A DNA stretch of 64,000 nucleotides, taken from assembly GCA_963843755.1 (NCBI GenBank), contig CAWJLS010000002.1:385279-449278 (forward strand), in the 5' to 3' direction. A program made the position numbers and the translations under genes. Below are positions 9,574 through 43,489 of this stretch, one piece after another. Position 1 is the stretch's first letter. Each line of letters starts with the position of its first letter. This DNA is from an uncultured Acidobacteriota bacterium. Lineage in GTDB: Bacteria > Acidobacteriota > Thermoanaerobaculia > Multivoradales > DATKCC01. The notes beneath the pieces are model-generated. The model was not told where the DNA came from. It was given only the letters and a program-made list of their open reading frames with translations, and did no database searches.

Positions 9574-11724
9574 GTGCGGGCCGCCGTCTGCGGTGTCGTG
9601 GCGCTCGCCCTGCTGGCCGGGTGCGGCGGGCCGTCTGGCCCGTCCGGGCCGGCGGCGAGGAGGTCCCCGCGGCGACCTCGAAGGGCGCTTCCACGTCCTC
9701 CGGCGGCCGCGGGGGCAGCGCCCAGAACGTCGTCCTGATCACGGTCGACACCCTCCGGGCCGACGCCCTCGGCTTCGCCGGCAACCAGAAGGTGTCGACG
9801 CCGGCCCTCGACCGGCTGGCCGCCGCGGGCCGGGTGTTCACCGACGCCCATGCCCAGAACGTGGTCACCCTGCCTTCCCACACCAACATCCTGACCGGCC
9901 TCTACCCCTACCAGCACGGGGTGCGCAACAACGGCGGCTTCACGCTGCGGGCCGGACGTGCCGACCCTGGCGACGGTGCTCCACCGAGCCGGTTTCGCCA
10001 CCGCCGCGTTCGTCGCCGCGTTCGTCCTCGATTCGCGCTACGGCCTCGACCGCGGGCTTCGACGTCTACGACGACGACCTGGGGGGCGCGGTCGAAGGGC
10101 AGGGCGAGCACCTGTTCACCTACCCCGAGCGGTCGGGCGACGAGGTGGTGGAGCGGGCCCGCCGCTGGTGGCAGGAGAACCAGGGCCACCGCCGCTTCGT
10201 CTGGCTGCACCTGTTCGAGCCCCACGCGCCCTACACGCCGCCCGCGGCCTTCGCCGGCGACGGGTCGGAGCCCTATCTGGGCGAGGTCTCGGCGGTCGAC
10301 TCCTATCTCGCGCCGCTGCTCGACGAGCTCCTCTCCGGACGCGAGCCGCCCACCCTGGTGGTCTTCACCGCCGACCACGGCGAGGCGCTCGGCGAGCACG
10401 GCGAGCTGACCCATAGCTTCTTCGCCTACGAGCCGACCCTGAAGGTGCCGCTGGTGCTGTGGGGCCCCGGGGTCGAGCCCGGGCGCGACGGCCGGGCGGC
10501 CCAGCACGTCGACATCATGCCCACGGCGCTCGGCCTGCTGGGGGTCGACCCGCCCGCGGACCTGCCGGGGCGGTCGCTCGTCGGGGCGCCGCCGGACCCG
10601 TCGCGCGTCTCCTACTTCGAGTCGCTCTCGCCGAACCTGGAGTACGGCGCCGCTCCGCTGCGCGGGGTGATCGGCCACGGGATGAAGCTGATCGAGCTGC
10701 CGATCCCCGAGCTCTACGACCTGAAGGCGGACCCCGGGGAGACCCACAACCTCATCCACGAACGGCGGCGGGAGGCCCGGGAGCTGGCCGCGGCGCTGCC
10801 CGAAGAGTCCCAGTGGCCGCCCGAGGCCGGAGACGATCGCGCCGGAGGAGGCGGAGAAGCTCAGGAGCCTCGGCTACCTGGGGGGGCTCGACCGGTAGAG
10901 GGGCCGCGAAGAAGGCCTCCTACGGCCCGGAGGACGATCCGAAGAACCTGATCGGCCTCGACCGCAAGCTCAACTCGATGGTCCAGCTCTACACCGCGGG
11001 GCGCTACGACCGGGCGGTCGCGCTGGGGCGTGAGATCGTCGCGGCCCGGCCGACGATGACGGTCGCCTACGAGTACCTCACGCGCATCCTGCTCGAGCGC
11101 AACGACAACGCGGCGGTGCTCGATCTGCTCGAGGCGGCGCGGCGTGCCGGGGCCGCCAACGGGGCGCTGCTCCAGCAGCTCGGGCTGAGCCTGGTGCGCG
11201 CCGGACGGCCCGCGGAGGCGGTGAAGGTGCTCGAGACGCTCGACCCGGACGCGTCCGGCGCGGATACCCTGAACGGCCTCGGCCTGGCATACTCGGCCCT
11301 CGGACGCTACGACGACGCGGCCGCCGTGCTCGAGCGGGCGGCGGCGGCCCGGCCGGACGACCCGCGGCCGCTCGAGACCCTGTCGTTCGTGGCCATCCAG
11401 CGGCAGCGCTATGCGGAGGCCCGCGACTACGCCCGCCGGGCGTTGAAGATCGAAGGGCGGCGGCCCGATGCCTGGAACAACCTGGGGATCGCCTACTACA
11501 ACCTCGGCGACGCCAAGACCGCGGTGGAGGCCTGGAAGCGGGCCGCGACGCTCGACCCGGGCAACCTCGACGTGCTGTTCAACCTGGGCACGGTGGCGGC
11601 CCGGATCGGCGATGCCGGCACCGCCCGCAAGGCGCTCGGCGCCTTCCTGGCGGCCGCGCCGGCCTCCGGCTACGCCGACGAGCGGCGCCAGGCGCAGAGG
11701 ATCCTCGACGGTGGCGCATCCTAG
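9574..11724 (+). pseudogene. AP-superfamily sulfatase-like hydrolase fused to TPR, lipoprotein (paralogue 1), frame broken about 5 times
   Basis: GTG 9574 gives MRAAVCGVVALALLAGC (lipobox). Then NVVLITVDTLRADALGF...VVTLPSHTNILTGLYPYQHGVRNNG...FVWLHLFEPHAPY...FTADHGEALGEHGE..., with TPR to the stop at 11724. Homology hops across four track ORFs (9528, 9958, 9566, 10459) and an unlisted frame. The breaks are near 9640-9652, 9948-9955, 10054-10056 (GGG), 10826-10830 and 10880-10886 (G7). Confidence 0.75.
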
Positions 11725-15444: not shown

Positions 15445-17140
15445 CGCGATGGAGGAGACGGCGTGGTGGGGCCGCTCGCCGAGAGTGGACCCGCGCCCTG
15501 GTGCTGAGCGGCCTGCTGGTCTCGGGAGCGCTCTGGGCGGCGGCACCGGCCCGCGGAGCCCAGATCCGCTTCAAGGAGGTCTCGAAGGACTGGGGGCTCG
15601 CCTTCCGCCACCACCACGGTGGCAGCGGCGAGCTCTACATGGTCGAGACCATGGGCTCCGGCGTCGCCGTCTTCGACTACGACGGCGACGGCGACGACGA
15701 CGTCTTCTTCGTCGACAGCGGAACGCTTCCGGGATACCACGGAGAGGAGCCGCACTCGGCCCTGTTCCGCAACGACGGCGGGCACTTCGTCGACGTCACC
15801 CGCGCGGCGGGGGTCAAGATCAAGGTCTACGGCCAGGGCGCGGTCGCCGCCGACGTCGACGGGGACGGCGAGCTCGACCTCTACGTCACCGGCTTCGGGC
15901 CGAACCAGCTTTTCCACAACCGGGGCGACGGCACCTTCGAGGAGGTGCCCGACGCCGGCGGCGCCGCGGACCCGGGCGTCGGGGCGTCGGCCAGCTTCGC
16001 CGACGTCGACGGCGACGGCGACCTGGACCTCTACAGCGCCAACTACGTCGATTTCGACCTCGACCACAACGTCGTCTGCGGCAACAAGGAGCGGGGCATC
16101 CGGACCTACTGCCATCCGGACGCCTACGACGGCATGGCGGACCACTTCTACCGCAACCAGGGCGACGGCACGTTCGTCGAGGACACCGCCGCGGCCGGCC
16201 TCGAGGCCACCATGTCCGACGGGCCCGGGAAGGGGCTGGGGGTGCTGTGGACCGACATCGACGATGACGGCTGGCCGGACCTCTACGTGGCCAACGACAT
16301 GACTGAGAACCTGCTGTTCCGCAACCGCGGCGACGGCACGTTCGAGGAGCTGGGCATGCTCGCGGGCACGGCCTTCAGCGACCGCGGCGATCCGGAGGCG
16401 AGCATGGGGGTGGACGCCGGCGACCTGGACGGCGACGGCATGCCCGAGATCATGCTGACCCACATCGACGGCCAGACCAACGCCGTCTACAGCTACAAGG
16501 GGTCGTGGATCTTCACCGACAGCCGCTACACAGTGCGCCTGGCGGAGCCGTCGGTGGGCAAGGTCGGCTTCGGCGTGCTGTTCGCCGACTTCGACCAGGA
16601 CGCCGACCTCGACGTGGCAGTGGCCAACGGCCACATCATCGACAACATCGACCTGTTCGACAAGACGACCACCTACAAGCAGCCGCAACCAGGTGTTCGA
16701 GAACCTCGGCAACGGGCGGTTCTCGGAAGACGAGCACTCCGGCCTCGACGTGATCCGCGCCAGCCGCGGCTCGGCGGTCGGCGACCTCGACCTCGACGGC
16801 GACCTCGACCTGCTGATCAACAACTCGAACGACTGGTGCGAGGTCTACGAGAACGTGACCCCGAACGCCGGCGCCTGGCTCCAGGTCGACCTGGTGCAGG
16901 ACCGCGGCAACCGGTGGGCGATCGGCGGGCGGGTGACGGTCGACGCCGAAGGGCTCGCGCTCCCAGTGGCGCGAGGTGCGGACCGGCTCGTCCTACCTCT
17001 CCCAGAGCGCGTCGACGCTGCACTTCGGGCTGGGCGCGGCCAAGAGGGTCGACCGGCTGCTCGCCCGCTGGCCGGGCGGTGAGCAGCGGATCGTCGAAGG
17101 CCTCGGCACCCGCGTCCGCGTGCGTCTGTTCAAGAACTGA
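15441..17140 (+). pseudogene. CRTAC1-type FG-GAP/ASPIC protein (paralogue 2), frame broken twice
   Basis: ATGA overlap start at 15441. WGLAFRHHHGGSGELYMVETMGSGVAVFDYDGDGD... and FG-GAP units. Homology moves to ORF 16693..17082 near 16683-16690. It moves to a third frame near 16955-16964 (QWREVRTGSSYLSQSASTLHFGLG...RWPGGEQ...LFKN, stop 17138-17140). Confidence 0.75.
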
Positions 17141-19171
17141 TCCGGGCCAGCGTCTGCCGGGCCATGCGGTTGCCCGGCTGCACCTCGAGCAGGTGCTCGA
17201 GCAGCGGCCGCGCCTCGTCCTTGCGCCCCTCGCTCAGCAGCAGCACCGCCAGGTCGTTGAGGGCCGCCGGGTGGTCGGGGGCCAGCTCCAGCGCCTTCCT
17301 CAGGTGCTGCTCGGCCGTCTCGAGGTTCTTCTGTCCCCATGGCGATCGCCCCGGCCTGGTACTGGACGTCCGGGTTGTCGGGCAGGGCGCGGAGCAGCGC
17401 GTCGGACTCCTTCTGCCGCCTCGTCGAGCCGGTGGCCGAACAGCAGGGCGCGGACCTTGAGCAGTCGAAGCCGCGGCTTGTCCGGGGACTCGTCGATCGC
17501 GGCGTCGAGGTAGAGCAGGCCGTCGTCCAGGTCGCCGAGCTCCAGGGCGAGCTGGGCCATCGGCTGGGCGAGCCCGGGCGCGCCGTTCGACAGGTCGAAG
17601 GCCTTCTTGTACGCATCGAGCGCGTTGCGGCGCTGGCCGAGGTTCTGGAGCGTCAGGCCGAGGAACTGCCAGGCGTCCATCGACTTCGGGATCTGCGCGG
17701 TCGCCTGGCGCAGCCGGGGGAGGGCCTCCTGGTAGTCGCCGCGCTGGACGATCTCGATCGCCACCCGCAGGTTCTCGAGCGCCGCCAGCTCGTCCTTCGG
17801 GTTGACCGAGGTGTCCTCGGAGCCGGCCGTCCCGCCCAGGTAGCCGAGCGAGGTCAACGCCTCCCGGGTCTCCGAGCTCTCCTCGAACGGCTTTTCGAAG
17901 TGGGGCTCGATCGCCTCGATCGCGTCGCGCATCCGGGCATAGACGCGGCGCTCCCGGCGGATCCGGTCGGTCCTCTCCGCCGGGTCCTGCTCGACGTCGT
18001 AGAGCTCGGAGCGGGGGCTCTGGATGTAGTGGTAGTGGCCGTCGATCAGCGACCGGAGCTCACTCCAGCCGAAGCGTATCCGCGGGTGGTAGGTCTCGCT
18101 GTAGATCGCGCGGGGCGCGGTCAGCGACTCGACGTCGAGCAGCGACATGCCGTCGAGCCGCTCGGGGGCGGGCGCCCCGGCGATGGCGAGCAGCGTCGGC
18201 ATGACGTCGGCCAGCCCGACGGGGGCCGCCACACTGGTGCCGGCACGGCGCCGGCCGGGCAGCTTGAGGATCAGCGGCACCTGGATCGCCTCGCGGTAGA
18301 GCAGCACGCCGTGCTCGTCCTCGCCGTGGTCGCCGAGCCCCTCGCCGTGGTCCGAGAGCAGGACGATGGTCGAGTCGTCGTAGAGGCCCCGCTGCCTGGA
18401 GCGCCTTCACCAGGTCGCCGACGATCTGGTCGCTCTCCGCGATCTCGCCGTCGTACGGGGAGGCGTAGCGGGAGGCGAACGGCTCGGGCGGATCGTACGG
18501 CGCGTGGGGCTCGTAGATGTGGAAGAAGAGGAAGAACGGCCGGTCGGCGTCCCGGCCCGGGCGGTCGTCGAGCCAGGCGAGCGCCGCCTTCAGGGTGGCC
18601 GGGCCGGGGCGCTGGATCTGGGCGATGGTGGCGCGCCGGGAGTCCGCCTGGAAGTCGTCGTCGTAGGTGTCGAAGCCGCGGGAGATGCCGGTCTGGTGGC
18701 GCAGCACGAAGGCGGAGACCGCCCCGCCGGTGGCGTAGCCGGCCTGCTCCAGGACCTCGGCCAGGGTCGGCGGCCCGTCCGCGGCCAGGCGGTAGCCGGC
18801 GTTGTCGCGCACGCCGTGGTCGGGCGGCAGCAGGCCGGTGAAGAGCGAGGTGTGGGACGGCAGGGTCAGCGGCACCGGGCTGTAGGCGTGCTCGAACAGG
18901 ATGCCGTCGGCGCGCAGGGCGTCGATCGCCGGCGTCTCGGCCGCCGCCTCGCCGTAGACGTCGAGGTGGTCGGAGCGCAGGGTGTCGATCGAGATCAGGA
19001 CGATCGGCCGGCCGGCCGGGATCGCTCCGCTCCGGAGCCGGCGCTGCAGCCGAGGAAGGCGGTGAGGGCGACCGACGTAGCCAGGGCGGCCAGGGCGGCC
19101 ACAGCGGCCAGGGCTCTCGGGACAGGGAGGGCGGCGAGGCCGCTGACGACGGGGCGGAAGGCGCGGCTCAT
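17130..19171 (-). pseudogene. AP-superfamily sulfatase-like hydrolase fused to TPR, lipoprotein (paralogue 2), frame broken about 4 times
   Basis: ATG 19171 gives MSRAFRPVVSGLAALPVPRALAAVAALAALATSVALTAFLGC (lipobox). RPIVLISIDTLRSDHL...VPLTLPSHTSLFTGLLPPDHGVRDN...FFLFFHIYEPHAPYDPP...SDHGEGLGDHGEDEHGVLLYREA... then TPR. Breaks near 19005-19020, 18384-18395, 17405-17415 and 17328-17338. The stop at 17132-17130 overlaps the convergent gene end by 11 nt. Confidence 0.75.
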
Positions 19172-21692: not shown

Positions 21693-21706
21693 CGGGTGAG
21701 GGTAGC

Positions 21707-28675: not shown

Positions 28676-30582
28676 TCAGGCCCCGCCGTCCGCTCCTTTC
28701 GGGCGTTTCGAGCGCCGGGTCCGCACTGGTTCGCGCACCTGGTTCGAGGCGCAGCGATAGCCTCCGTTGTGGATCACGCTGCCCACTAGCGGGGGCAGCA
28801 GATCGAGTCGCGTCCCCATCGCCTGGAACCGCTCGCGGGCGAGGCGGTCGCCGGCGCGGAATCCGGGAGGCGAAGCCTTCGGCCCGCGGCTCGCCGTTCC
28901 GGACGTCGAGCACGACGTTGTTCCAGCCGAGGACGAAGTCCGGGTAGTCGAGCGCGTCCGGTCACCGTCGAGCAGGGCGACCGGGACCAGGAGCAGCGGC
29001 AGGCGCCCGACGGTGAGCCCGGCGCCCTCCAGGTGCTCCGCGATCAGGTCGAGGAAGCCTTCGAGGCCGGTGGCGCGGGCGCCCTTCTGGTAGGCGAGGA
29101 GCCGGGAGGTGAGCTCGCTGCCACCGGCGCCCAGATGGTAGGTCTCGCGGAGCGCCAGCAGGTCCTCGGGGCCGAGGTCCGCGAGCAGCCGCCTGCCGCC
29201 GTCGACGTCGCCGACCAGGGCGCTGAGGCCACCGTCCTTGCCCGGCAGCAGGGTGACGAGGGAGTCGAGGTCGTAGCCGGCGCCGCCGCCGATCCGGGCC
29301 ATAGACCGCGGCACGCTCCGTGGCGGGGCCGCTCTCCGGCAGGGCGTGCACCAGGTGGACCGGCTTGCCGTAGAAGCGCGCCATCTCGTCCATCGCCCGG
29401 TGGGCGGCCGCCAGGTACCGGTCGATCCCGGCGGTGGTACCGAACGTCTCGGACGGCACCCGATCGACCCCCAGATCGCCGAGGATCTGTTGTTCCAGGG
29501 AGTGGAGCGACAGCCACACTACGCCGTCGGCGCTCAGGATCTGCCCGGTGTGGAAGCGGATCGGGGCGGTGCTCCAGACCGGCCGGCCCCAGCGTCGATC
29601 GAGCGCCTCGGGCAGGTTCTGGACGATCTCCCGGGCCATGAAGAAGTCCTCCTCCCGCCCGGCCTGCCGGAACGGCCGGTCGACCAGCTCGAGCCCGCCG
29701 TCGTGCCGGAGCGCGACGTTGAACGGATCGCGCGGCCACGGGGAGTAGGCGCGGCCGTAGGTCTCGAGCAGGGTCAGCCCGAGGTTGCTGGCCGTGGGTT
29801 CGAGACTTCGGGTCATGGGCAGGTCGGTCAGGGCGACGAGCGCGCGCTCCGGAGCCAGGGCGTGGACCGCGGCGAGGAGCCGCCGGGCGTCGTCGGCGTC
29901 GACGTAGTTCGAAGGGCAAGGAGTAGATCGACGCCCGGACCGGGTCGGCGAGGTCGTCCGGGAAGGTCAGCTCCTCCGGGTGCATCGAAGCCTCGCGGGC
30001 GGCGCTCGACCGGGGAGCGGCCGACCAGGCGAGCTCGAGCGCTTCGGACTCGGCGAACGAGAGCCCGCCCACCTCGACGTAGAGGCTGTAGAGGATGCGG
30101 TCGCGGAGGGCGGGTGCCGTGCCGGGCGCCAGGCCGTGGGTGAGCAGGGGGACGACGTGCCGGCGGAAGTCCGGATCGGCGGCGAACCGGTCGGGGTCGC
30201 CGAGCAGCAGGAGGAGCACGCTCCGGGCGTCCGCGGTGGTCCACGGCCCGCCCCGGCGAGTCAGGCGCAGGCAGCGGGCCCGGGAGAGGGCGGTGAGCCG
30301 GTCGGCCGCCGCGTCGCGGGCCCCCGCGTCGGCGCCGGTGAGGCCGGCGAGCAGCGGGGCCAGCGCCTCGGCCCGGAGCTCGGGATGGCGGGCGAGGTGC
30401 TGCTCCAACCCGGCCGGATCGACAGGGCCGGCCGGGCTGGTGGCCCCGACGCCCTCCGCGCTCGTGGCCGGCGGCCCCAGGAGGGCCAGGATCGTCAGAC
30501 CGAAGAGCAGGCCCAGGAGCCTCTGCGCGCCGGCACCTCGGCTCAACGCGCCGTCTCCCGGAGCGCCGGGGCGTTCGGCCAC
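28676..30582 (-). pseudogene. exported protein with agmatine/peptidyl-arginine-deiminase-like (pentein-fold) C-terminal motifs, frame broken about 4 times
   Basis: N-terminal anchor RLLGLLFGLTILALLG. The probable start is TTG 30546 (TTGA overlap), or GTG 30582. Segments YSPWPRDPF, IRFHTGQILSADGVVWLS, GGGAGYDLDSLVTLLPG, LGWNNVVLDVRNGEP, AGDRLARERFQAMG...SVIHNGGYRCASNQV are spread over ORFs 29044..30582, 28962..29816, 28676..29314 and 28611..28913. Breaks near 29905-29912, 29300-29320, 28958-28966 and 28858-28872. Confidence 0.45.
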
Positions 30583-32730
30583 CGGTTCCGGGCCACCTGG
30601 AGCAGGCGCTCGGCCGAGCCCGGGTCGCCCAGGAGCCTCATGGCCTGCGCCGCCTCGGCGTAGGCGGTGGGAGTCTGGTTGGTCTCGACGAGCTGGCGCA
30701 GCACCGCGCCGGCCTGCGGGCCCTGGCCCGAGAGGGCGTAGACCACGGCGAGCCGGGTGTAGGCGGCCAGCTCCGCGGGATAGAGCTCGATCTCGTGGCG
30801 GAAGGCGGCGATCGCCTCCTGGGCCTGACCGAGCTGGGCCAGGGACTCTCCCTGGATGTAGTAGAGACCGCGGATGAACTCCTGATCGTAGCCCTCCTTC
30901 TCGACGTCGGCCTCGACCTCGCGGGTGAGGCCGAGCGCCTTCTGGGGCTCACCCCGCTTGAGCAGGAGCTGGGCCTTCGTGATGCGTACCGACGGCTGCT
31001 CGTTGCCGGCGGCGATCGCCTTCTCGACGTAGTCGGCGGCGCTGGTCGAGGTCGCCCTGGCGGATGGCGATCTGCGCCAGCAGGTCGAACGCCTGGTCGT
31101 ACTCCTTGGACGCCACCAGGGCGAGGCGCTTGGCCTCGTCGAGCCGGCCGAGCCGCACCAGGCAGCCGGCCATGGTCAGCGACGCGTAGGGCGAGCCGCC
31201 GGTGAGCTTCATCTGGTGGTCGAAGGCTTTCAGCGCCTCGCGCGGCCGTCCCAGGCGCAGCAGGCTGTTGCCCATGTACTCCCAGGCGTCGACGAGCTGG
31301 GGCTCCTGGTCGAGGATCTGCTGGTAGACGCCGACAGCCTGCTCGTACTGGCCGGCCTCGGCCAGGTCGAGCGCCTTGCCCAGGAGGTTCAGCACCTCGA
31401 GCTTGGTCTTCGGATCGGCCAGGGACTCCTCGCCCCGGTTGCCGACCGAGCCGACGTAGCCGAGCGCCTCGAGCTGCTTGCGCACCTCCGGGTCCTCGGT
31501 CTGGTCCGGCTCCTGGAACGAGCCGTCATACCTCTCGAGGGCGTCGCGGAGCCCGGCGTAGGTTCGGCGCTGTTCCTGGATGATGTTGTGCTCCTCGCCC
31601 GGGTCCTTCTCCAGGTCGTAGAGCTCGCGGTCCGGCCCCTGGATCAGGTGGTACGGGTACTCGATGACCGAGGTGAGCTCGCTCCAGCCGAAGTGGATGC
31701 GGGGGAACTGGGTCTCGCCGTAGATCGGCCGCTGCTGAGCCTCGTCCAGGGTCAGGAGAGACTGGCCCTCGAGCTCCTCCGGCTGGTCGATGCCGAGCAG
31801 CGAGAGCACGGTCGGCACCAGGTCGGTGAGCTGCGCCGGGGCGTCGCTGGTGGTGCCGCCGCGCTGGTTGCCGGGGAGCTTCACCACCAGCGGGACCTGG
31901 AGGACGTCGCGGTAGAGCAGCGGGCCGTGCTCCTGGAAGCCGTGGTCGCCCAGCCCCTCGCCGTGGTCGGAGACGAAGAAGACGAGCGCCTTGTCGTAGA
32001 CCCCGAGGCGCTCGAGCTCGGCGATCAGCCGGCCGATGAGGTCGTCCGCCGAGGCGATCTCGCCGTCGTAGGCGAGGGTGTAGCGCGAGGCGAACGGCTC
32101 CGGCGGGTCCCAGGGGCGGTGCGGCTCGTAGAGGTGGAAAAAGAGGAAGAACGGGGAGCCCTTGACCGACTCGAGCCACGGCTCCACCGCCGCCAGGGTC
32201 TGGTCCCCCTTGCGCTGGGCGCTGCCCATCTTCCACGTCCGCTGGAGGATGTTGTCGTCGTAGAAGTCGAAGTCCGACGACATGCCGGTGGCGGCGCGCA
32301 GGACGAAGGCGGAGACCGCGGCGCCGGTCTTGTAGCCGTGCTGCTTCAGGATGCGCGGCAGCCACGGGTGGTTGGCGGCGTCCAGGTGATACCCGAGGTT
32401 GCCGCGGACGCCGTGGTCGGCCGGGCGCAGGCCGGTCAGCATGGACGAGTGCGAGGGCAGGGTGAGCGGGACGTGGCTGTAGGCGTGGCGGTAGAGGATT
32501 CCGTCCTGCCGTAGGCGGTCGAGGTGCGGCGTCTCGACCTTCTGGTACCCGTACATGGGCAGATGGTCGGAGCGCAGGGTGTCGACCGAGATCAGGATGA
32601 CGGGGGTGCCGGGAGCGGCGTGGATCTCCGGCGCGGCCCCCTTCTCCTCGCCTCCGCAGGAGGCTCCGAGGATCAGGGTGCCCGCCAGCAGAACCAGGCC
32701 GAGACGGTGGGTCCAGGTCGACGTCTTCAT
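30543..32730 (-). pseudogene. AP-superfamily sulfatase-like hydrolase fused to TPR, lipoprotein (paralogue 3), single frame break
   Basis: ORF 30949..32730: MKTSTWTHRLGLVLLAGTLILGASC (lipobox), VILISVDTLRSDHL, VPLTLPSHSSMLTGLRPADHGVRGN, FFLFFHLYEPHRPWDPP, SDHGEGLGDHG, then TPR. After about 31041-31046 the TPR continues in the frame of ORF 30543..30746 (AADYVEKAIAAGNEQ...YALSGQGPQAG...NAPALRETAR). Confidence 0.8.
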
Positions 32731-34979
32731 TCACTGCTCCGTTGCCCCAGCCGTGCCAGGGTGGCCCGGGCCTTGGCGAGGTCCGGGCCGTACTGCGCGG
32801 GGTCGGCGACGGCCACGAACTGCTCGAGCGCCTTGCGCGCCCGCGACGTCTCGCCGGCTTCCGCCGCGACGAGCCCCAGGTTGAAGAGGAGATCCGCGTT
32901 GCGGGGCTGGAGGGCGACGGCCCGGTCCCAGGCGTCGAGGCTGTCGTGGACCTGGCCCAGGTTGTAGAGCGCGACCCCGAGGTAGTTCCACGCTCTCGGC
33001 AACTGGTCGTTGAGCGCGAGGGCCTTGCGGGCCTCCGAGCGCGCGTCCTCCCAGTGCTGTGTGCGCAGGGCGACGAGAGCGAGGTTCTGGTGGGCGACCG
33101 GATTGCGCGGGTCCTGCTTGAACACCTGCTCGAACGCGGCCCGTGCCTCGTCCTGCAAGCCCCCGGTGGTCAGGGCGACGCCCATTGCGTTGAGCGCGTC
33201 GGGATCTCCCGTCGCGGCGAGCGGCTGGAGGACGATGATCGCCTCGCGGGGGTTCCCGAGCTCGGCGAGCAGGAGGCCGAGCTGGCGGTCCGCGGACGCC
33301 GTCGACACGTGCCGGTCGTGGGCGTCCTGGAGGACCTTGAGCGCCTGGCGGTCGAGCCCCTGCTGGAGCAGGACCTGGGCGTAGTAGTTGTAGGCGATCC
33401 CCATGTCCGGCCGCGCCGCGACGATCTTCTCGATGAGGGCGGTCGCTTCCTTCAGCTTGTTGGCCTGGTACAGGTCGATGAAGTGGTGGAAGTCCCGGTC
33501 GATCCCCACCAGGTTCTTCGGGTCGTCGGCCGCGGTGTAGTGGGTCTTGTGGTCGGCGCTGCCGGCGAGGTAGCCGAGGCTCTGGAGCGCGGCGGCCTCC
33601 TTGCCGGAGAGCGCGCCCGCGGGCGGCGGCCACACGGACTCTTTCGGCAGCAGGTCGGCCAGTCGGCGGGCGCGCCGCCGGTCCTTGTCGAACAGGTTGT
33701 TCGTCTCGCCGGGATCGGCCTCGAGGTCGTAGAGCTCGGGAACCGGCAGGGCGATGAGCTTGTAGCCCCCCGCGATGACCCCGCGCAGCGGCGCCCAGCC
33801 ACGGCTCATGTTCGCCGACAGGGCTTCGAAGTACGACGCGCCGGCCTCCGGGCTCTTCGGCGCGGGCCCGAGCAGGCTCCGGCCGGGGAGATCGGCCGGC
33901 ACGGGCAGTCCGGCGGCGTCGAGCACGGTCGGCAGGATGTCGATGTGACGCACCAGCCCGGTCGAGGTGCCGGAGCGCACGTCGGGCCCCCAGAGGACGA
34001 GCGGGATGTGGAGGGTGGCCTCGTAGGTGAAGAGGCTGTGGGTGGTCTCTCCGTGATCGCCCAAGGCCTCGCCGTGATCGCCGGTGAAGACGATCAGGGT
34101 GGCCCCCTCCTTGCCGTCGAGGAACGGCTGGAGCAGGGGAGTGAGGTCGTGATCGACCGCCGCGACTTCGCCCAGGTACGGTTCGGAGGCGTAGCGCGAG
34201 GCGTACGGCTCCGGCGGGGCGTACGGCGCGTGGGGGTCGTAGAGGTGGATCCAGAGGAACCGCTTGCGGTTCCGGTGGGCGTCCCACCAGGCCTTGCCGC
34301 GGGCCACGACCTCGTTGCCCGGCCGTTCCAGCTCGCGGAACTGGTTCTCTTCGGCGCCTTCGCCGTACTGGTCGTCGTAGAGGTCGAATCCCCGGTCGAG
34401 ACCGAAGCGTCCGTCGAGCGGGAACGCGCCGACGACGGCGGCGGTGGCGAAGCCCACGTCGTGGAGCCGGGTCGCCACGGTGGGGACGTCGTCCCGGAGG
34501 ACGAACCCGCCGTTGTCCCGGACGCCGTGCTGGTAGGGGTAGAGACCGGTCAGGATGTTGGTGTGGGACGGCAAGGTCACCACGTTCTGGGCGTGGGCCT
34601 CGGAGAAGACCCGTCCCGCGGCCGCGAACCGGTCGAGGAGAGGCGTCTTGACCCGGTCGTTGCCGGTGAAGCCGAGGGCGTCGGCCCGTAGCGTGTCCAC
34701 CGTGATCAGCAGGACGTTCTCGATCGGCTTTTCGGAGGTCCGGATCGGCTCGTCGGCCTCGCCGGGTGTGGCGGTCCCGGCTGCCGCGGGTCCGGCTTCG
34801 GTGGCGGCGGGTCCGGCTTCGGTGGCCGCGGGTCCGGCTTCGGTGGCCGCGGGCGCTACCTCGGCGGTCGGTCGTCGGCTCTCGGCCGCTCCGTTCGAGC
34901 CGCCATTACAGCTCCACACCGCGGCGCCGGCTGCCAGGAGGCAGCCGGCGAGCAGTGCCTGGAGTGAGGCGCGCGTCAC
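32727..34979 (-). CDS. AP-superfamily sulfatase-like hydrolase fused to TPR, lipoprotein (paralogue 4), intact
   Basis: ORF 32727..34979 (750 aa), GTG start in a GTGA overlap. LLAAGAAVWSC lipobox-like signal, (PAATEAG)x3 linker, NVLLITVDTLRADALGF, VVTLPSHTNILTGLYPYQHGVRDNG, FLWIHLYDPHAPYAPP, TGDHGEALGDHGE, and about 280 aa of C-terminal TPR. Confidence 0.88.
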   Translation of the reverse strand: MTRASLQALLAGCLLAAGAAVWSCNGGSNGAAESRRPTAEVAPAATEAGPAATEAGPAATEAGPAAAGTATPGEADEPIRTSEKPIENVLLITVDTLRADALGFTGNDRVKTPLLDRFAAAGRVFSEAHAQNVVTLPSHTNILTGLYPYQHGVRDNGGFVLRDDVPTVATRLHDVGFATAAVVGAFPLDGRFGLDRGFDLYDDQYGEGAEENQFRELERPGNEVVARGKAWWDAHRNRKRFLWIHLYDPHAPYAPPEPYASRYASEPYLGEVAAVDHDLTPLLQPFLDGKEGATLIVFTGDHGEALGDHGETTHSLFTYEATLHIPLVLWGPDVRSGTSTGLVRHIDILPTVLDAAGLPVPADLPGRSLLGPAPKSPEAGASYFEALSANMSRGWAPLRGVIAGGYKLIALPVPELYDLEADPGETNNLFDKDRRRARRLADLLPKESVWPPPAGALSGKEAAALQSLGYLAGSADHKTHYTAADDPKNLVGIDRDFHHFIDLYQANKLKEATALIEKIVAARPDMGIAYNYYAQVLLQQGLDRQALKVLQDAHDRHVSTASADRQLGLLLAELGNPREAIIVLQPLAATGDPDALNAMGVALTTGGLQDEARAAFEQVFKQDPRNPVAHQNLALVALRTQHWEDARSEARKALALNDQLPRAWNYLGVALYNLGQVHDSLDAWDRAVALQPRNADLLFNLGLVAAEAGETSRARKALEQFVAVADPAQYGPDLAKARATLARLGQRSSE
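34786..34852. repeat. 21-bp tandem repeat x3 (gcgggtccggcttcggtggc[gc])
   Basis: Units at 34786-34806, 34807-34827 and 34828-34848. Encodes (PAATEAG)x3 just after the lipobox of sulfatase-like paralogue 4. Confidence 0.9.
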
Positions 34980-36139
34980 TTCGACGGCGACTCCAGATAC
35001 TTGAGGAACTCCTTGGCGTCCTTGGCGTACTGGCTGTCCGGGGCGAGCTCCAGGAGCTTCTCGAAGTCCGCCTTGGCGTGCTCGTTGTCACCCCCGTTGA
35101 GGTAGACCAGCCCGCGGTAGTAGTAGGCGTCCGCCATCTTCGGATCCTGGCGGATGACGCGCTGGAAGTTCTCCATCGCCATCTTCAGCTTGTCCTGGCT
35201 CCCCTCCTTCGTCGACTCGTTGTAGAACCGGATGCCCTGGTTCAACAGCATGTCGGGCGGCAGCTCCGCCGTCTCGGGGATGCGGTCGAGGTAGGTCTGG
35301 GCCTCCTCCTCCTTGCCCTCGCGGCTCAGCAGGTCCGCGATGAGCTGGAGCGCCTGGATGTTGTCGGGCGACGCGTCGAGGATCCGCTTGACCGACGCGA
35401 TCGCCTGCTCGCGGTTGCCCTCCTGGTCGTAGCTGCGGGCGATGGCGAGGAGCACCTGGGTCTGGCTCTCCGGCGGCAGCCCCGCCAGGCTCTGCTCGTA
35501 GACCTCGCGCGCCTTGGCCGACTCGCCCTGCTGGGCGTACGAGTCACCGAGACGCAGCAGGACGCCGGTCTTCTCGGAGTCCTCGAGGCCGGGAAGCGCC
35601 TTCTCGTACTCGCTGCGCGCCTGCTCGAAGCTCTTCTGGGCGTAGTAGGTGGTACCGATCAGCGCGTGAACCTGCGCCTTCTGGTGGTCGTCCATGTCGG
35701 ACAGGACCGCCTGGAACTTGGTCCGGGCCTCGTCGTACTTGCCCTGGTCGATCAGGTCCTGACCCTGCTGGATGACGTCGAAGGGGTTCTTCTCGAGCTG
35801 GATGACCACCGGCTTCGAAGGGTGGAACTCGTCGACCTTGAAGGTTCCCTCGGAGTCCTTGTATCCCTCGGCCTGGATGACGACTGTCCAGACGCCGCCG
35901 GTCAGGCCCAGGTAGCTCCAGCGGCCCCTCTTGTCGGTCGTGAGCGGTGGGGGGCCGGCATCCGGGCGACCGGGGAGGTGCAGGGTGATCTTGGCGCCCG
36001 CGATGGGGGAGTTGCTCTGGTCGGTGACGCGGCCGTTCGCCCGCCCTCGTCCGACCCAATCCTGTGCGGTCGCCGGCAGGGCCGCGAGCATCAGGACGAG
36101 GGCCGCGAAGAGGGGCGTCTTCCAATTCTTGACGTGCAT
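34976..36139 (-). CDS. exported CarboxypepD_reg - TPR protein
   Basis: In ORF 34976..36211. ATG 36139 is preceded by AAGGAG. Signal MHVKNWKTPLFAALVLMLAALPATAQ. GRVTDQSNSPIAGAKITLHLPG...TDKRGRWSYLGLTGGVWTVVIQAEGY. TPR units to the C-terminus. Confidence 0.85.
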   Translation of the reverse strand: MHVKNWKTPLFAALVLMLAALPATAQDWVGRGRANGRVTDQSNSPIAGAKITLHLPGRPDAGPPPLTTDKRGRWSYLGLTGGVWTVVIQAEGYKDSEGTFKVDEFHPSKPVVIQLEKNPFDVIQQGQDLIDQGKYDEARTKFQAVLSDMDDHQKAQVHALIGTTYYAQKSFEQARSEYEKALPGLEDSEKTGVLLRLGDSYAQQGESAKAREVYEQSLAGLPPESQTQVLLAIARSYDQEGNREQAIASVKRILDASPDNIQALQLIADLLSREGKEEEAQTYLDRIPETAELPPDMLLNQGIRFYNESTKEGSQDKLKMAMENFQRVIRQDPKMADAYYYRGLVYLNGGDNEHAKADFEKLLELAPDSQYAKDAKEFLKYLESPSK

Positions 36140-36261
36140 CGTGCACTCCTTGTGGGGATCGTCAAACAGGACGCCGAACCTCGCGTACGGTCCGGCGCTC
36201 GGGTCCTTCAACCTTCTGGAGGCAGGGATTATGCCGACGGCCGGGCGCAGTCGCGCCCAAA

Positions 36262-36316: not shown

Positions 36317-39300
36317 CTAGCGCCAGTTCAGGCGGAAGCCGAGACGGTAGATCCGCGGCGACAGCGACTCGGTGACGAAGTTCGCCGTCGGCGCCTGCAG
36401 GCTACGGTCGCGCTGCAGGATGTAGTTCTCGTTGGTCACGTTGAACGCGTCCAGCGAGAGCACGCCGCTGAGGTTGTCGGTGAACGCCATGTCCTTCTCC
36501 ACGCGGAGGTCCAACGTGTAGACGTTGTCCGCGCGGAACTGGTCGACGCTGCTCACCACACCGGCGGCGAGCTGCGAGGCAGCGCGGTTGGTGACCGCCG
36601 TCTGGTAGGTGTACGGCAGCGGGTAGCCCTCGCGAGCGAAGAAGTTGCCCGCGACGTTGAAGCCCCACGGCTTGTCCGGAGCGACCTGGTAGAGGCCGTT
36701 GATGTTGGCCGACCAGGTCGACTGGATCAGGACGTCGGTGAACGGACCGGAGCCACCGGACTGGACGGTGTAGAGCGCGCCGTCCTTGTCCGACAGATCC
36801 TGGGCCTGCGTCGGGTCGTCGAAGCGAAGCGTCTCGGAACCGACGTTCCACTTGGAATCGCCGTACTGGAAGTAGCCGCGAGCCATCCACCGGTTCGCCA
36901 GACGCTTGGTCAGCGTCAGGCCGGCGCCCTTGTACTCGACCGAGGAGTCACCGTTGGTCAGGTACGAGCCACCGGCCGGCGAGAGGCCCGGAGCGAAGGA
37001 GTAGAAGTCCGCCGACCACGGCGTGCCGTCCGGCAGGTTCGGCGCGGTGCAGCCGGCGCCGTTGCCGATCGAGCAGACCGTGTGGTCGAGGACGTAGTCG
37101 TTACGGGTCGCGACCCGCTTGACACCGTTCCCGTCGATGATGAACTCACGGGTCTCGAGCAGGTCGGACGTCTTACGGTAGGTGAGGTCGAGGCCGACGA
37201 CGAACTCAGGCAGGAACGCGTGCTCCACGCTCGCCAGGAGCTCGTCCGTGACGGACGGCTTGAGGTCCGGATCGGTCTCGTTCGGGTTCTCGAGGGCCGT
37301 GGGGTTGGCCGGATCGAAGCCGCCGAAGCCGGCCAGGTCGAAGGGCTCGCCCACGTCGTAGTAGTCGTTGCCGTTCGTGTCGTTGAAAGCGACGGTGATG
37401 TTGGCGTAACCCAGGGGGTTGAGCCGGGTGATGTTACCGGTCTGGAGCTGCTCGGCGAACCGGGAGTAGCTGGCCCGCAGCAGGGTCTTGCGCTCGGCAC
37501 CGAGGGCGTAGGTCACGCCGACGCGCGGCGAGAAGGTATTCCAGGTGAACGGAGCGTCGGCGCCCTGGTAGTTGAGCGTCGGCAGGATGTTCGAGAACAC
37601 CGGGTTCGACTCGACGGTGGCAGCGGCGTTCTTGCCCTCCTGCTTGTCGTAGCGAAGACCGGCGTTGATCGTCCAGCTACCGGTGGTGATGGTGTCCTGC
37701 AGCCAGCCGGCGGTGTACTTCTGGGTCGATTGCGGGCCCGCCGAGCCACGGACCGCGATGGCGAGGTCGTCGCCCACGTAGCCGAAGCTGGTGAGGACGC
37801 CGCACAGGCCCTGGGACTCGCAGGTCAGGTTGGCGATGTTCCGGCCGCCGACCCAACCGAAGGCGGAGACGGCGTCGAACTTCCGGTAAGAGACACCGAA
37901 CTTCAGCTCGTGGTTGAGGTTGCCGGTGTTGAAGAAGTAGGAACCGTCGACCTGGTAGTTGTCGGTGTTCCGGTCGGTGCTACCGCTGTACCAGCCGTTG
38001 TGCCAGATACCGTCGGTGCCTTCCACGGACTCGCCCTGGGCGATCGCGGTCGCCGTGTCGGCGGTCCGGCCGCCGGGGAACTGACCGCCCTTGGACTGCA
38101 GGGCGAAGCCACCGTCGACGTAGGAGTACAGGCCGGTGAGGTAGAGGTCGGCCGAGAACACGTGGGTGTCCTCGATCTTCCAGATCTCGGTCGGGCCGGT
38201 CTGGTTCCAGGAGGCGTCGATGTCGCGGTTGGAAACGGAGGTCCGCCCTTCCTTGATCTTGTCGCCACGGTTCCAGGAACCGACGATCGAGTTGTTCGAC
38301 AGGGGCTGGCCGTTGAACTTCACCGCGCTGTTCTCGAGCACGGTGTTGTCCGGGGAGCCGTCCTGCTTGAACTGCTTGATGTCGTTCTTGCCCCAGGAGC
38401 CCCAGACCCACAGCCGGTCGCGAACGATCGGGCCGCCGGCCTCGAAGCCGAAGTCGTCGATCTCGTTGATGTTGTTGCCAGGCGTGCTGGCAGCCGTCTG
38501 CTGGTTGAAGCCGCCGTTGCCGTCGCCGTTCTCGAGCTCGCCGGCCAGGTCGCTCTTGCCCTGCTTGAAGACGTCGAACTGCTTGGACGCGTCGGTCTTC
38601 AGGAAGCGGGCGGAGCCGCGCGGGTTGTTCGAGCCACGCTTGGTAACCAGGTTGAGGGAGGCGCCGGACGAGATCTTCTCGACGTCGGTGCCGCCGGTGG
38701 AGACCTGAATCTCCTCGAACTGGTCGAAGTCGTAGTAGGTCGGCGACGAACCGATCGCCGCCATGTCGGTGATGACGACACCGTCGACCGCGAAGCTGTT
38801 CTCGTTGTCGGACACGCCAGGAGCGGTGAACACGGCCTGCTGGCCGGAGTTGTTACCGCCGACGTTGATCCGGTCGGAGAGCACGCCCGGGGTCTGGGTG
38901 ACGATCGACCACGGGTCACGGGCCGTCGGGATCTTCTCCAGCTCGATCTGGGAGACCGTCGTGCCGGCGCTGACCTTGCGCTCGTCGAGAAGCGGGCTCT
39001 CGGAGGTCACGGTGATGACCTCTTCCACCGCCGGCGAGAGCTTGATCGCCAGGGTGGTGTTCCGACCGACCCGGATGTTGACGTTCGGGTACTCGACGGT
39101 CGAGAACCCTTCCAGGCTCGCGCTCAGAGCGTAGTTGCCCGGGTCGAGGTTCAGGAAGCGGAACTGCCCCTGAGGACCGGTGAACTGAGTGCGCGGCGCA
39201 CCGATCCCGCTGAGCTCGACGCGGACACCGGGGAGGGCACCGCCCTGGTTGTCCGTGACGGACCCGTAGAGGTTACCGGTCTGCTGCTGAGCGAACAGAC

Positions 39301-39370
39301 TGCCCGTGCTCGCCAGTAGCAGCACCGCGGCGACGACGAGAATGCGTCGCCAATTCGTAAATCGACTCAT
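36317..39370 (-). CDS. Oar-like TonB-dependent receptor / outer-membrane beta-barrel with CarboxypepD_reg N-domain
   Basis: In ORF 36317..39541. ATG 39370 is preceded by GGAGGAG. Signal MSRFTNWRRILVVAAVLLLASTGSLFAQ. GSVTDNQGGALPGVRVEL...FRFLNLDPGNYAL. Plug-like VITVTSESPLLD...IPTARDPWSIVTQTPGV...VDGVVITD. Terminal ...PRIYRLGFRLNWR. Confidence 0.88.
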   Translation of the reverse strand: MSRFTNWRRILVVAAVLLLASTGSLFAQQQTGNLYGSVTDNQGGALPGVRVELSGIGAPRTQFTGPQGQFRFLNLDPGNYALSASLEGFSTVEYPNVNIRVGRNTTLAIKLSPAVEEVITVTSESPLLDERKVSAGTTVSQIELEKIPTARDPWSIVTQTPGVLSDRINVGGNNSGQQAVFTAPGVSDNENSFAVDGVVITDMAAIGSSPTYYDFDQFEEIQVSTGGTDVEKISSGASLNLVTKRGSNNPRGSARFLKTDASKQFDVFKQGKSDLAGELENGDGNGGFNQQTAASTPGNNINEIDDFGFEAGGPIVRDRLWVWGSWGKNDIKQFKQDGSPDNTVLENSAVKFNGQPLSNNSIVGSWNRGDKIKEGRTSVSNRDIDASWNQTGPTEIWKIEDTHVFSADLYLTGLYSYVDGGFALQSKGGQFPGGRTADTATAIAQGESVEGTDGIWHNGWYSGSTDRNTDNYQVDGSYFFNTGNLNHELKFGVSYRKFDAVSAFGWVGGRNIANLTCESQGLCGVLTSFGYVGDDLAIAVRGSAGPQSTQKYTAGWLQDTITTGSWTINAGLRYDKQEGKNAAATVESNPVFSNILPTLNYQGADAPFTWNTFSPRVGVTYALGAERKTLLRASYSRFAEQLQTGNITRLNPLGYANITVAFNDTNGNDYYDVGEPFDLAGFGGFDPANPTALENPNETDPDLKPSVTDELLASVEHAFLPEFVVGLDLTYRKTSDLLETREFIIDGNGVKRVATRNDYVLDHTVCSIGNGAGCTAPNLPDGTPWSADFYSFAPGLSPAGGSYLTNGDSSVEYKGAGLTLTKRLANRWMARGYFQYGDSKWNVGSETLRFDDPTQAQDLSDKDGALYTVQSGGSGPFTDVLIQSTWSANINGLYQVAPDKPWGFNVAGNFFAREGYPLPYTYQTAVTNRAASQLAAGVVSSVDQFRADNVYTLDLRVEKDMAFTDNLSGVLSLDAFNVTNENYILQRDRSLQAPTANFVTESLSPRIYRLGFRLNWR

Positions 39371-39525
39371 TTGTTCTTCTCCTCCTAGCAGGGTTCTGCA
39401 CGTTGCAGAGTTCCGACCGCCCAGGATGGGACGGCCGCCGAAGCGCTTCGCCTGCGCTCCCCGCGGCATCGCGCGGCGCGAAAGCACGGCGAATAGGCTG
39501 AATGAACGTGCCGTGAACGGCTTAG

Positions 39526-39554
39526 AGTGTAGCGATACCACGCATGGGGGTCAA
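39526..39554 (-). promoter_or_regulatory. sigma70-like promoter candidate for the receptor operon
   Basis: Minus strand: TTGACC (39554-39549), a 17-nt spacer, then TACACT (39531-39526). This predicts a ~150-nt 5' UTR containing the palindrome ctgcaacgtgcag (about 39397-39409). Confidence 0.4.
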
Positions 39555-41118: not shown

Positions 41119-41209
41119 GTATGGCGGCACCGCCCCTCCGGTGCGAAGCAGACCTGATGTCCCGGGGGCCGATTCCGGCCCACGGCGCTCGATCCCTGGA
41201 GGTGTTCCG

Positions 41210-43428: not shown

Positions 43429-43489
43429 GAATCGATCGAGCTCGGTCGATGCCGACCGATCCCCCGCTCGAGCAACCGGGAGAGCACTC

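What the first reader, a model, noticed from the sequence alone, without database searches (positions are those of the whole stretch)
32727..34979. All four sulfatase-like paralogues carry T-L-P-S-H instead of the C/S-x-P-x-R formylglycine signature
Motifs read directly from the four genes. Gene 9574: VVTLPSHTNILTGLYPYQHGVRNNG. Gene 17130: VPLTLPSHTSLFTGLLPPDHGVRDN. Gene 30543: VPLTLPSHSSMLTGLRPADHGVRGN. Gene 32727: VVTLPSHTNILTGLYPYQHGVRDNG (T-L-P-S-H codons at 34577-34563). Type I sulfatases need Cys or Ser in C/S-x-P-x-R for formylglycine formation. Here Thr and His fill those positions. That is the arrangement (T-x-P-x-H...TG-x-x-P-x-x-HG) of Thr-nucleophile alkaline-phosphatase-superfamily enzymes such as NPP-type phosphodiesterases. 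The rest of the domain is sulfatase-fold (FFHxYEPHxPY, DGEI..D, SDHGExLGxHG). No FGE or anSME gene is in the window. All four have lipoboxes and 250-300 aa of C-terminal TPR. They are probably phosphoester-directed hydrolases or transferases rather than sulfatases.
Basis: partly seen in the sequence, partly recalled or inferred. Interest (0 to 1): 0.6.

Follow-up and report, generated by a model that had tools for sequence, protein, structure and literature searches.

The report
Threonine-type sulfatase-fold TPR lipoproteins
Four genes that look like sulfatases have threonine where real sulfatases need a modifiable cysteine or serine, so they are most likely exported phosphate-ester enzymes from a very large, unstudied Acidobacteriota family that databases often misname as sulfatases.

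Summary
The gene at 32727-34979 (-) encodes an intact 750-aa lipoprotein with a PF00884 sulfatase-fold domain and about seven C-terminal TPRs. T-L-P-S-H (codons 34577-34563) aligns on the Cys and Arg of the C-x-P-x-R motif of solved sulfatases. The other three paralogues carry the same motif, but each is broken by one to four frame switches. These are probably assembly indels.

Thr135 and His139 are invariant in 269 of 269 aligned relatives. So are the metal ligands Asp95, Asp301 and His302. The sulfate-binding residues of S1 sulfatases are replaced: Arg by His, Lys by Ala, His by Pro, Lys by His. The D-H-G-E-x-L-G-x-x-G-x-x-x-H-G block aligns with E. coli EptA.

By sequence and predicted fold, the closest relatives are formylglycine sulfatases and phosphonate monoester hydrolases, not EptA, LtaS or NPP.

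The best reading is a lipid-anchored, metal-dependent, Thr-nucleophile phosphoryl-transfer enzyme, more likely a diesterase. Its substrate is unknown.

The family has about 12,750 clusters at 50% identity. All 84 fetched loci are Acidobacteriota, and the gene often follows an Oar-type TonB-dependent outer-membrane protein gene. My literature searches found no characterised member. I call it a new variant of a known kind, of moderate interest.

The parts
32727..34979 (-). Intact sulfatase-fold/TPR lipoprotein gene (750 aa, P0001), paralogue 4
   Evidence: Open frame. PF00884 E 5.7e-37 at res 88-357, plus SGSH_C and many TPR families. AF2 model has pLDDT 85 and pTM 0.82. Short-read contigs lie without indels on the 32822-34057 they cover.
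34908..34979 (-). Signal peptide with lipobox-like Cys (LLAGC at C13, VWSC at C24)
   Evidence: Read from the translation. Helix 3-22 in the model. Which Cys is lipidated was not determined.
34786..34852 (-). (PAATEAG)x3 Pro/Ala linker between lipid anchor and catalytic domain
   Evidence: Visible in the translation. pLDDT is below 50 for res 24-74.
34695..34697 (-). Asp95, first metal ligand (V-D-T-L-R-A-D block)
   Evidence: D in 268 of 269 residues at this column. Aligns with the Glu of E-T-S-R-A-E in E. coli EptA, but that stretch scores only 1.1 bits.
34563..34577 (-). T-L-P-S-H: Thr135 at the nucleophile position, His139 in place of the motif Arg
   Evidence: Aligns on the FGly position and the Arg of 5g2v and 4upi. 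T and H in 269 of 269.
34512..34514 (-). Asn156, 21 residues after the nucleophile (H-G-V-R-D-N)
   Evidence: N in 265 of 271 rows. The same +21 spacing is seen in the 5g2v and 4upi alignments. The role of phosphoryl- or sulfuryl-oxygen contact in NPP, PafA and PMH is recalled from memory.
34230..34247 (-). H245-L-Y-D-P-H250 block: His250 is the conserved active-site His of sulfatases; His245 and Asp248 are specific to this family
   Evidence: H245 in 270 of 271, H250 in 269 of 271, D248 in 244 of 271. EfAS H220 is the equivalent by motif.
34038..34079 (-). D301-H302-G-E-A-L-G-D-H-G-E-T-T-H314: metal ligands plus a His that replaces the sulfatase Lys
   Evidence: D301, H302 and H314 are at or near 100%. 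Aligns with DHGESLGENGIYLHG of E. coli EptA. H314 falls on the Lys of 4upi. EfAS H312 to K324 has the same +12 spacing.
32733..33521 (-). C-terminal TPR solenoid (about seven repeats, res 487-749)
   Evidence: Pfam TPR families. Matches to consensus TPR proteins in PDB. Helices 487-749 with pLDDT above 90.
30543..32730 (-). Paralogue 3 (VPLTLPSHSSMLTGLRPADHGVRGN); its ATG overlaps the stop of paralogue 4 (ATGA); one frame switch near 30.95-31.18 kb
   Evidence: The syntenic genes in related loci L001-L004 are intact at 728-805 aa.
17130..19171 (-). Paralogue 2 (VPLTLPSHTSLFTGLLPPDHGVRDN), lipobox FLGC, TPR tail; about three frame switches
9574..11724 (+). Paralogue 1 (VVTLPSHTNILTGLYPYQHGVRNNG), lipobox LLAGC, TPR tail; about four frame switches
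   Evidence: Independent short-read contigs differ by single letters exactly at three switch sites.
34976..36211 (-). CarboxypepD_reg + TPR protein; its stop overlaps the start of paralogue 4 (GTGA)
   Evidence: Pfam. Same position in related loci L001-L004.
36317..39541 (-). Oar-type TonB-dependent outer-membrane protein (CarboxypepD_reg + OMP_b-brl_4), first gene of the operon
   Evidence: Pfam. The commonest neighbour in relatives: 32 of 52 full loci, and upstream on the same strand in 32 of 69.

Best explanation
These are not sulfatases. Each gene encodes an exported protein that is probably lipid-anchored, with an Ala/Pro linker, a sulfatase-fold catalytic domain and a TPR solenoid.

The catalytic domain keeps the universal metal site of the alkaline-phosphatase superfamily (Asp95, Thr135, Asp301, His302), and Thr135 serves as the metal-activated nucleophile. 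Thr cannot be converted to formylglycine. The cationic sulfate-binding set of S1 sulfatases (Arg, Lys, His, Lys) is replaced by His139, Ala185, Pro187 and His314.

His250 and His314, possibly with His245 and Asp248, sit where EptA/MCR-1-type enzymes have their second His pair. They probably bind a second metal or the leaving group.

The inferred reaction is phosphoryl transfer through a covalent phospho-Thr intermediate. No Lys/Arg pair is present to hold a monoester dianion, so the substrate is more likely a phosphodiester or a related mono-anionic ester than a monoester. The acceptor would be water, or possibly another molecule.

The TPR domain would dock the enzyme on a partner. The partner may be the CarboxypepD_reg-TPR protein and the Oar-type outer-membrane protein, whose genes are translationally coupled or adjacent.

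What is shown: fold class, motif placement, residue conservation, synteny. What is inferred: the chemistry, the second metal, the diester preference, the docking role.
For: T135 and H139 align on Cys and Arg of C-x-P-x-R and are invariant in 269 of 269 and in 125 of 137 further domains, with no Cys seen. D95, D301, H302, H250, H314, H245 and N156 are at or near 100%, which argues for an active enzyme. The positions of the S1 Lys and His (GKWH in 5g2v) are A185 and P187, and the distal Lys of 4upi is H314. The role of that residue set was checked against EfAS. The DHGE-LG-G---HG block aligns with E. coli EptA at 34.7 bits. PF01663 (NPP) also matches at 33-72 bits. SulfAtlas authors state that Thr cannot yield FGly. 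No maturase was found among the window frames scanned. Signal peptide and lipobox are present in all four genes. The operon with the Oar-type protein and the CarboxypepD_reg-TPR protein is conserved in L001-L004 and recurs in relatives.
Against: There is no biochemical datum for any member. Overall sequence and fold are closest to true FGly sulfatases and PMHs, so the scaffold itself does not exclude sulfuryl transfer. The AF2 model carries no metals and its coordinates could not be inspected, so the second-metal site rests on motif analogy. No phosphate-regulon or phosphate-uptake gene recurs next to the family. An earlier scan note reports relatives beside sulfate-assimilation genes in another lineage (not tested here).
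Confidence: 0.7

Rival explanations
1. Transferase rather than hydrolase. The enzyme would be an EptA/LtaS/OpgB-like enzyme that moves a phospho-headgroup (phosphoethanolamine, phosphoglycerol or phosphocholine) from a lipid donor onto an envelope glycan, lipid or protein, and the TPR domain would select the acceptor.
For: Thr nucleophile plus an EptA-like DHGESLG..G...HG block, and a D/E-T-x-R-x-D/E block. The protein is lipid-anchored and so sits close to a membrane. GT2, GT39/PMT and PagL-like envelope genes lie in the window.
Against: It has no multi-helix membrane domain; the known transferases use one to reach the lipid donor. Only a signal peptide is present. EptA and LtaS models score 20-36 bits against cut-offs of 500-970. 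The envelope-modifying genes are not recurrent neighbours in relatives.
Confidence: 0.15
2. A formylglycine-independent sulfatase. The Thr hydroxyl, activated by a His-rich metal site, would attack sulfate esters directly.
For: The nearest relatives by sequence and fold are all S1 sulfatases, including the C-terminal SGSH_C subdomain. The organism comes from salt-marsh or mangrove sediment, which is rich in sulfated polymers. An earlier scan note mentions relatives next to sulfate-assimilation genes (unchecked).
Against: All four sulfate-binding cationic residues are replaced. To my knowledge, no Ser/Thr-nucleophile member of the superfamily has more than trace sulfatase activity. SulfAtlas excludes Thr-bearing proteins. 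No sulfur-related neighbour recurs in 52 loci.
Confidence: 0.07
3. A non-catalytic binding or scaffold protein, or, for the three interrupted copies, decaying pseudogenes.
For: Three of the four copies are not open frames in this assembly. TPR fusion suggests a structural role.
Against: The nucleophile and every metal ligand are invariant across about 270 diverse sequences, which is not expected of a pseudoenzyme. Frame switches also hit unrelated genes between 8 and 31 kb. Near-identical short-read contigs lack single letters exactly at the switches near 10.05 and 10.83-10.88 kb. Syntenic copies in relatives are intact.
Confidence: 0.06

Closest known systems
SulfAtlas S1 formylglycine sulfatases and phosphonate monoester hydrolases (e.g. 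BT4656 5g2v, SpAS1 4upi, RlPMH 2vqr, choline sulfatase 6g5z, EfAS 9koq)
   Same: Best sequence matches (98 bits for 5g2v; NCBIfam arylsulfatase 143-168 bits) and best fold matches (Foldseek top 50). Both subdomains are shared, including SGSH_C. Shared features are the first Asp ligand, the Asp-His pair, the P-H His and the Asn 21 residues after the nucleophile.
   Different: Thr replaces Cys/Ser (FGly), His replaces the motif Arg, Ala and Pro replace the G-K-x-H Lys and His, and His replaces the distal Lys. The family also has a TPR fusion and a lipoprotein signal. All models score far below the family cut-offs.
Phosphoethanolamine transferases EptA/MCR-1 (also in PF00884)
   Same: Thr nucleophile. 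The D-H-G-E-S-L-G-x-x-G-x-x-x-H-G block aligns residue for residue with E. coli EptA. The H-x4-H-x-P block before it and the D/E-T-x-R-x-D/E block look alike by eye.
   Different: No N-terminal membrane domain. The nucleophile motif differs (G-T-x-T in EptA against T-L-P-S-H). Overall similarity is only 38 bits. The C-terminal subdomain is sulfatase-type.
Nucleotide pyrophosphatase/phosphodiesterases (NPP, PF01663) and PafA-type phosphatases
   Same: The motif T-x-P-x-H-x4-T-G-x-x-P-x-x-H-G-x-x-x-N and the x-D-x-x-R-x-D first strand resemble the NPP signature (from memory). PF01663 matches above its cut-off, at 33 and 72 bits.
   Different: PF00884 outscores PF01663 by 95-100 bits. No NPP structure appears among the top 50 fold matches. 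The NPP second-site ligands (D-x3-H and a distal His) have no exact counterpart.

Membership tests
S1 formylglycine-dependent sulfatases (SulfAtlas S1) | Sulfatase fold / PF00884 domain with C-terminal subdomain | tested here: met
   PF00884 at 128 and 172 bits, SGSH_C at 50-53 bits. Foldseek top 50 are all S1-type.
S1 formylglycine-dependent sulfatases (SulfAtlas S1) | C/S-x-P/A-x-R motif whose Cys or Ser is oxidised to formylglycine | tested here: not met
   T-L-P-S-H at the aligned position. T and H in 269 of 269. Thr cannot give FGly.
S1 formylglycine-dependent sulfatases (SulfAtlas S1) | Sulfate-binding Lys/His (G-K-x-H) and distal Lys | tested here: not met
   A185 and P187 take the G-K-x-H positions and H314 takes the Lys position. 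The reference residue set comes from EfAS.
S1 formylglycine-dependent sulfatases (SulfAtlas S1) | FGE or anSME maturase in the genome | not testable with these tools
   None among the 22 window frames scanned.
EptA/LtaS-type phospho-headgroup transferases | Thr (or Ser) nucleophile with a Glu/Asp + Asp-His metal site and a distal His | tested here: met
   T135, D95, D301, H302 and H314 are invariant. The block aligns with E. coli EptA.
EptA/LtaS-type phospho-headgroup transferases | N-terminal multi-pass membrane domain | tested here: not met
   Only one N-terminal helix (res 3-22), followed by a disordered linker.
EptA/LtaS-type phospho-headgroup transferases | Score above the NCBIfam family cut-off | tested here: not met
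   EptA 36 bits against 561; LtaS 21 bits against 970.
NPP / type I phosphodiesterase (PF01663) | Thr nucleophile in the T-x-P-x-H...T-G...H-G...N context | tested here: met
   The motif is read from the sequence and conserved. The NPP signature itself is recalled from memory.
NPP / type I phosphodiesterase (PF01663) | PF01663 as the best-scoring domain model over the whole domain | tested here: not met
   33 bits over 66 of 342 profile positions (gene 4) and 72 bits over 220 of 342 (gene 3). PF00884 scores 128 and 172 bits.
NPP / type I phosphodiesterase (PF01663) | Bimetallo Zn site | not testable with these tools
   Candidate ligands H245, D248, H250 and H314 are conserved, but the model's coordinates and metals are not available.

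The most novel reading that the evidence does not exclude
The T-x-P-x-H clade may be a separate, very large functional class of the alkaline-phosphatase superfamily. It would be a sulfatase scaffold refitted with a Thr nucleophile and an EptA-like His pair. In Acidobacteriota it would work as the enzymatic, TPR-docked partner of an Oar-type TonB-dependent outer-membrane protein. This would be a surface module that cleaves polymeric or lipid-linked phosphodiesters and passes the product to the transporter, or that is itself exported through it.
Probability: 0.25. Interest if true: 0.7.

Novelty: new variant of a known kind. Interest (0 to 1): 0.45.

Why it matters
First, annotation. Members of this family are named arylsulfatase, choline-sulfatase or "arylsulfatase A-like" in public records. 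The family has about 12,750 clusters at 50% identity that are more similar to this protein than any solved sulfatase is. Counts of "sulfatases" in Acidobacteriota MAGs from soils and sediments may therefore overstate the capacity to degrade sulfated glycans.

Second, enzyme evolution. The family sits between FGly sulfatases/PMHs and the Thr-nucleophile phosphoryl-transfer enzymes (NPP, EptA). This is the kind of natural intermediate used to study how nucleophile and charge swaps re-aim a shared scaffold.

Third, biology. Tandem, translationally coupled copies follow an Oar-type outer-membrane protein across several acidobacterial classes, which points to an undescribed envelope or nutrient-acquisition module.

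Tried and rejected
- Literature searches for a characterised Thr-type sulfatase-fold/TPR enzyme found nothing relevant.
- The "manganese-dependent arylsulfatase" model that matched weakly was checked as a possible Thr-using sulfatase. It uses Cys61/FGly, so it was rejected.
- No RNA runs hold the locus, so expression and co-transcription could not be tested.
- Reads could not resolve the frame switch in gene 3 because there was no coverage there. They also did not cover the T-L-P-S-H codons of gene 4.
- I looked for recurrent sulfur- or phosphorus-specific neighbours in 52 related loci. Only the Oar-type protein, an unassigned ~750-aa protein, the CarboxypepD_reg-TPR protein and FG-GAP proteins recur.
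- The CRTAC1-like (FG-GAP/UnbV_ASPIC) genes that alternate with the paralogues in this window occur in only 8 of 84 related loci. I do not treat them as part of a conserved system.
- The metal site could not be inspected in 3D because the model's coordinates are not returned.
- The branch point between Thr-type and Cys-type sequences could not be located, because hit lists are capped at 120-150 and all listed hits are Thr-type.

Full report
**Observation**

The window has 70.7% G+C. The gene at 32727-34979 on the minus strand is an open frame of 750 codons. Its product has these parts:
- an N-terminal hydrophobic helix with lipobox-like cysteines;
- a disordered (PAATEAG)x3 linker;
- a PF00884 sulfatase domain at residues 88-357 (E 5.7e-37) with an SGSH_C-type C-terminal subdomain;
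- about seven TPRs at residues 487-749.

The three other motif strings are also present as quoted.

HMMER alignments to solved sulfatases place T135 on the formylglycine position and H139 on the Arg of C-x-P-x-R. They also place G-A-F-P on G-K-W-H, and H314 on the distal Lys (5g2v and 4upi).

**A caveat the finding did not carry**

Only this one gene is an open frame.
- tblastn with the intact protein shows that gene 9574-11724 runs through frames 3, 1, 2 and 1, with a further switch right after the lipobox.
- Gene ~17130-19171 changes frame about three times.
- Gene 30543-32730 changes frame once near its TPR region.

A GC3 frame plot shows many such switches between 8 and 31 kb, and they also fall in unrelated genes. 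The stretch from 31 to 64 kb is almost free of them.

Short-read contigs from an independent salt-marsh run are nearly identical to the window. A mangrove-sediment relative was also laid. These lack single letters at 10053, 10833 and 10880, which are exactly the frame-switch sites, and the arithmetic restores one continuous frame. Over the part of the intact gene that they cover (32822-34057), the same run shows no indels. Syntenic genes in four related genomes are intact.

I therefore read the breaks as assembly indels, not decay. The switches in genes 2 and 3 were not covered by reads.

**Is the motif meaningful?**

All 120 close homologues carry T-[LF]-P-S-H. In an alignment of 271 catalytic domains reaching down to about 41% identity, the conservation is as follows.

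| Residue | Conserved in |
|---|---|
| T135 | 269/269 |
| H139 | 269/269 |
| D95 | 268/269 |
| D301 | 271/271 |
| H302 | 270/271 |
| H314 | 271/271 |
| H245 | 270/271 |
| H250 | 269/271 |
| N156 | 265/271 |

S138 varies to Ala or Gly, and no Cys is conserved, so no alternative nucleophile exists. In 84 related loci, 125 of 137 further domains match T-x-P-x-H. The other 12 failed my pattern, and none showed Cys.

**What it is closest to**

| Comparison | Result |
|---|---|
| NCBIfam arylsulfatase PRK13759 | 143-168 bits |
| NCBIfam choline sulfatase | 97-106 bits |
| NCBIfam PehA | 93-107 bits |
| NCBIfam EptA | 36 bits |
| NCBIfam LtaS | 21 bits |
| NCBIfam PafA | 20-24 bits |

All of these NCBIfam scores lie far below the family cut-offs.

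The best PDB sequence matches, apart from TPR proteins, are FGly sulfatases and phosphonate monoester hydrolases. The AlphaFold model (pLDDT 85, pTM 0.82) finds only S1 sulfatases, choline sulfatases and PMHs among its top 50 Foldseek matches. PF01663 (NPP) also matches, but 95-100 bits below PF00884. The scaffold is therefore S1-sulfatase-like.

**What the active site says**

The structure paper on the Enterococcus arylsulfatase lists the S1/PMH site as D20, Q21, C61 (FGly), R65, K110, H112, H220, D311, H312 and K324. By the alignments and the shared spacings, the counterparts here are as follows.

| EfAS residue | Counterpart here |
|---|---|
| D20 | D95 |
| Q21 | T96 |
| C61 (FGly) | T135 |
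| R65 | H139 |
| K110 | A185 |
| H112 | P187 |
| H220 | H250 |
| D311 | D301 |
| H312 | H302 |
| K324 | H314 |

The metal ligands and the general His are kept. The nucleophile becomes Thr, and every cationic residue that holds the sulfate is lost or turned into His.

A profile of the family aligns its taDHGEsLGehgEetHG block with LSDHGESLGENGIYLHG of E. coli EptA. It also aligns its iDTlRaD block with GETSRAE, but that second stretch scores only 1.1 bits and is suggestive at best. In MCR-1 and EptA, the His twelve residues after the Asp-His pair belongs, with the H-G-P His, to the second His pair of the phosphoethanolamine transferase site; I state this from memory.

The N-terminal motif resembles the NPP signature (T-x-P-x-H, T-G-x-x-P-x-x-H-G, Asn at +21). 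However, the +21 Asn and the T-G are also present in the sulfatases aligned, so only the Thr and His are discriminating.

**Mechanism proposed**

Metal-activated Thr135 attacks a phosphorus centre and forms a phospho-Thr intermediate. That intermediate is then resolved by water or by an acceptor. His250 and His314, possibly with His245 and Asp248, bind a second metal or protonate the leaving group.

The pocket lacks the Lys/Arg pair that monoesterases use, so a diester or similar mono-anionic substrate is more likely. This is inference from residues; nothing here measures activity.

**Context**

The intact gene's GTG overlaps the stop of a CarboxypepD_reg-TPR gene (GTGA). Its own stop overlaps the ATG of paralogue 3 (ATGA). 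Upstream lies an Oar-type TonB-dependent outer-membrane protein gene.

Four genomes with 61-78% identical orthologues show the same order: Oar-type, then CarboxypepD_reg-TPR, then two or three sulfatase-fold/TPR genes.

In the 84 loci fetched:
- 42 have tandem copies;
- 44 have an Oar-type gene within the flanks;
- the Oar-type gene lies upstream on the same strand in 32 of 69 loci with a full upstream flank.

Clustering of neighbours gave the Oar-type protein in 32 of 52 loci, an unassigned ~750-aa protein in 13, the CarboxypepD_reg-TPR protein, and FG-GAP proteins in 6. No sulfur- or phosphorus-specific gene recurred. Oar-type genes are numerous in these genomes, so part of this association could be chance. 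I did not compute a baseline.

**Distribution and prior knowledge**

A search of 1.84 billion representatives gave 12,751 clusters at E <= 1e-30. That is above the score of any solved sulfatase. It gave 109,084 clusters at E <= 1e-3.

All 84 genome loci come from MAGs. Nearly all are labelled Acidobacteriota (Thermoanaerobaculia, Vicinamibacteria, Terriglobia/Solibacteraceae, Aminicenantes), and the few labelled otherwise or not at all look mislabelled.

Source names range from "sulfatase-like hydrolase/transferase" to "arylsulfatase" and "choline-sulfatase".

The SulfAtlas paper already warned that half of the PF00884 seed has Thr and that such proteins are not sulfatases. It discussed the LtaS-like T-x-N-x-E type, not this one. 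I found no paper on a T-x-P-x-H, S1-like, TPR-fused enzyme.

Earlier notes of this scan reached the same reading in at least eight other genomes. These are not independent evidence.

**Verdict**

The general principle, that Thr-bearing PF00884 proteins are phosphoryl-transfer enzymes, is known. This particular clade, its mixed S1/EptA/NPP active-site make-up, its TPR fusion and its link to Oar-type proteins appear undescribed. I class it as a new variant of a known kind, of moderate interest.

Noticed in passing
window 8000-31000 versus 31000-64000: Frame switches are dense in the first stretch and hit sulfatase-like, FG-GAP/UnbV_ASPIC, GT2, GT39 and other genes. They are nearly absent in the second stretch. 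Independent short-read contigs lack single letters at three of the switch sites, so this looks like locally poor polishing of a long-read assembly.
   Followed up: partly
window 32727-32730 and 34976-34979: Four-base start/stop overlaps (ATGA, GTGA) link the CarboxypepD_reg-TPR gene, paralogue 4 and paralogue 3. This suggests translational coupling of the three genes.
   Followed up: partly
window 41141-45628 (+); L002:1912-4206: Two adjacent ~750-aa exported proteins have no Pfam match. Relatives of them recur, divergently placed, in 13 of 52 related loci beside the Oar-type operon.
   Followed up: partly
window 11447-13492, 15441-~17100, 21689-23635 (+): FG-GAP_3 + UnbV_ASPIC (CRTAC1-like) genes alternate with the sulfatase-fold/TPR genes in this window. 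They are found in only 8 of 84 related loci, so the alternation is local to this lineage.
   Followed up: partly
window 34786-34852: A near-perfect 21-bp x3 repeat encodes the (PAATEAG)3 linker of the intact gene. The close paralogue at 9574 has a Gly/Ser/Pro stretch at that place instead.
   Followed up: no
window 48838-54172: Two PMT/GT39-like genes and a PagL-like gene lie downstream of rny-ymdB. A GT2 and a further GT39-like stretch lie at 19.3-21.7 kb. Together these form envelope-modifying gene sets of unknown target.
   Followed up: no
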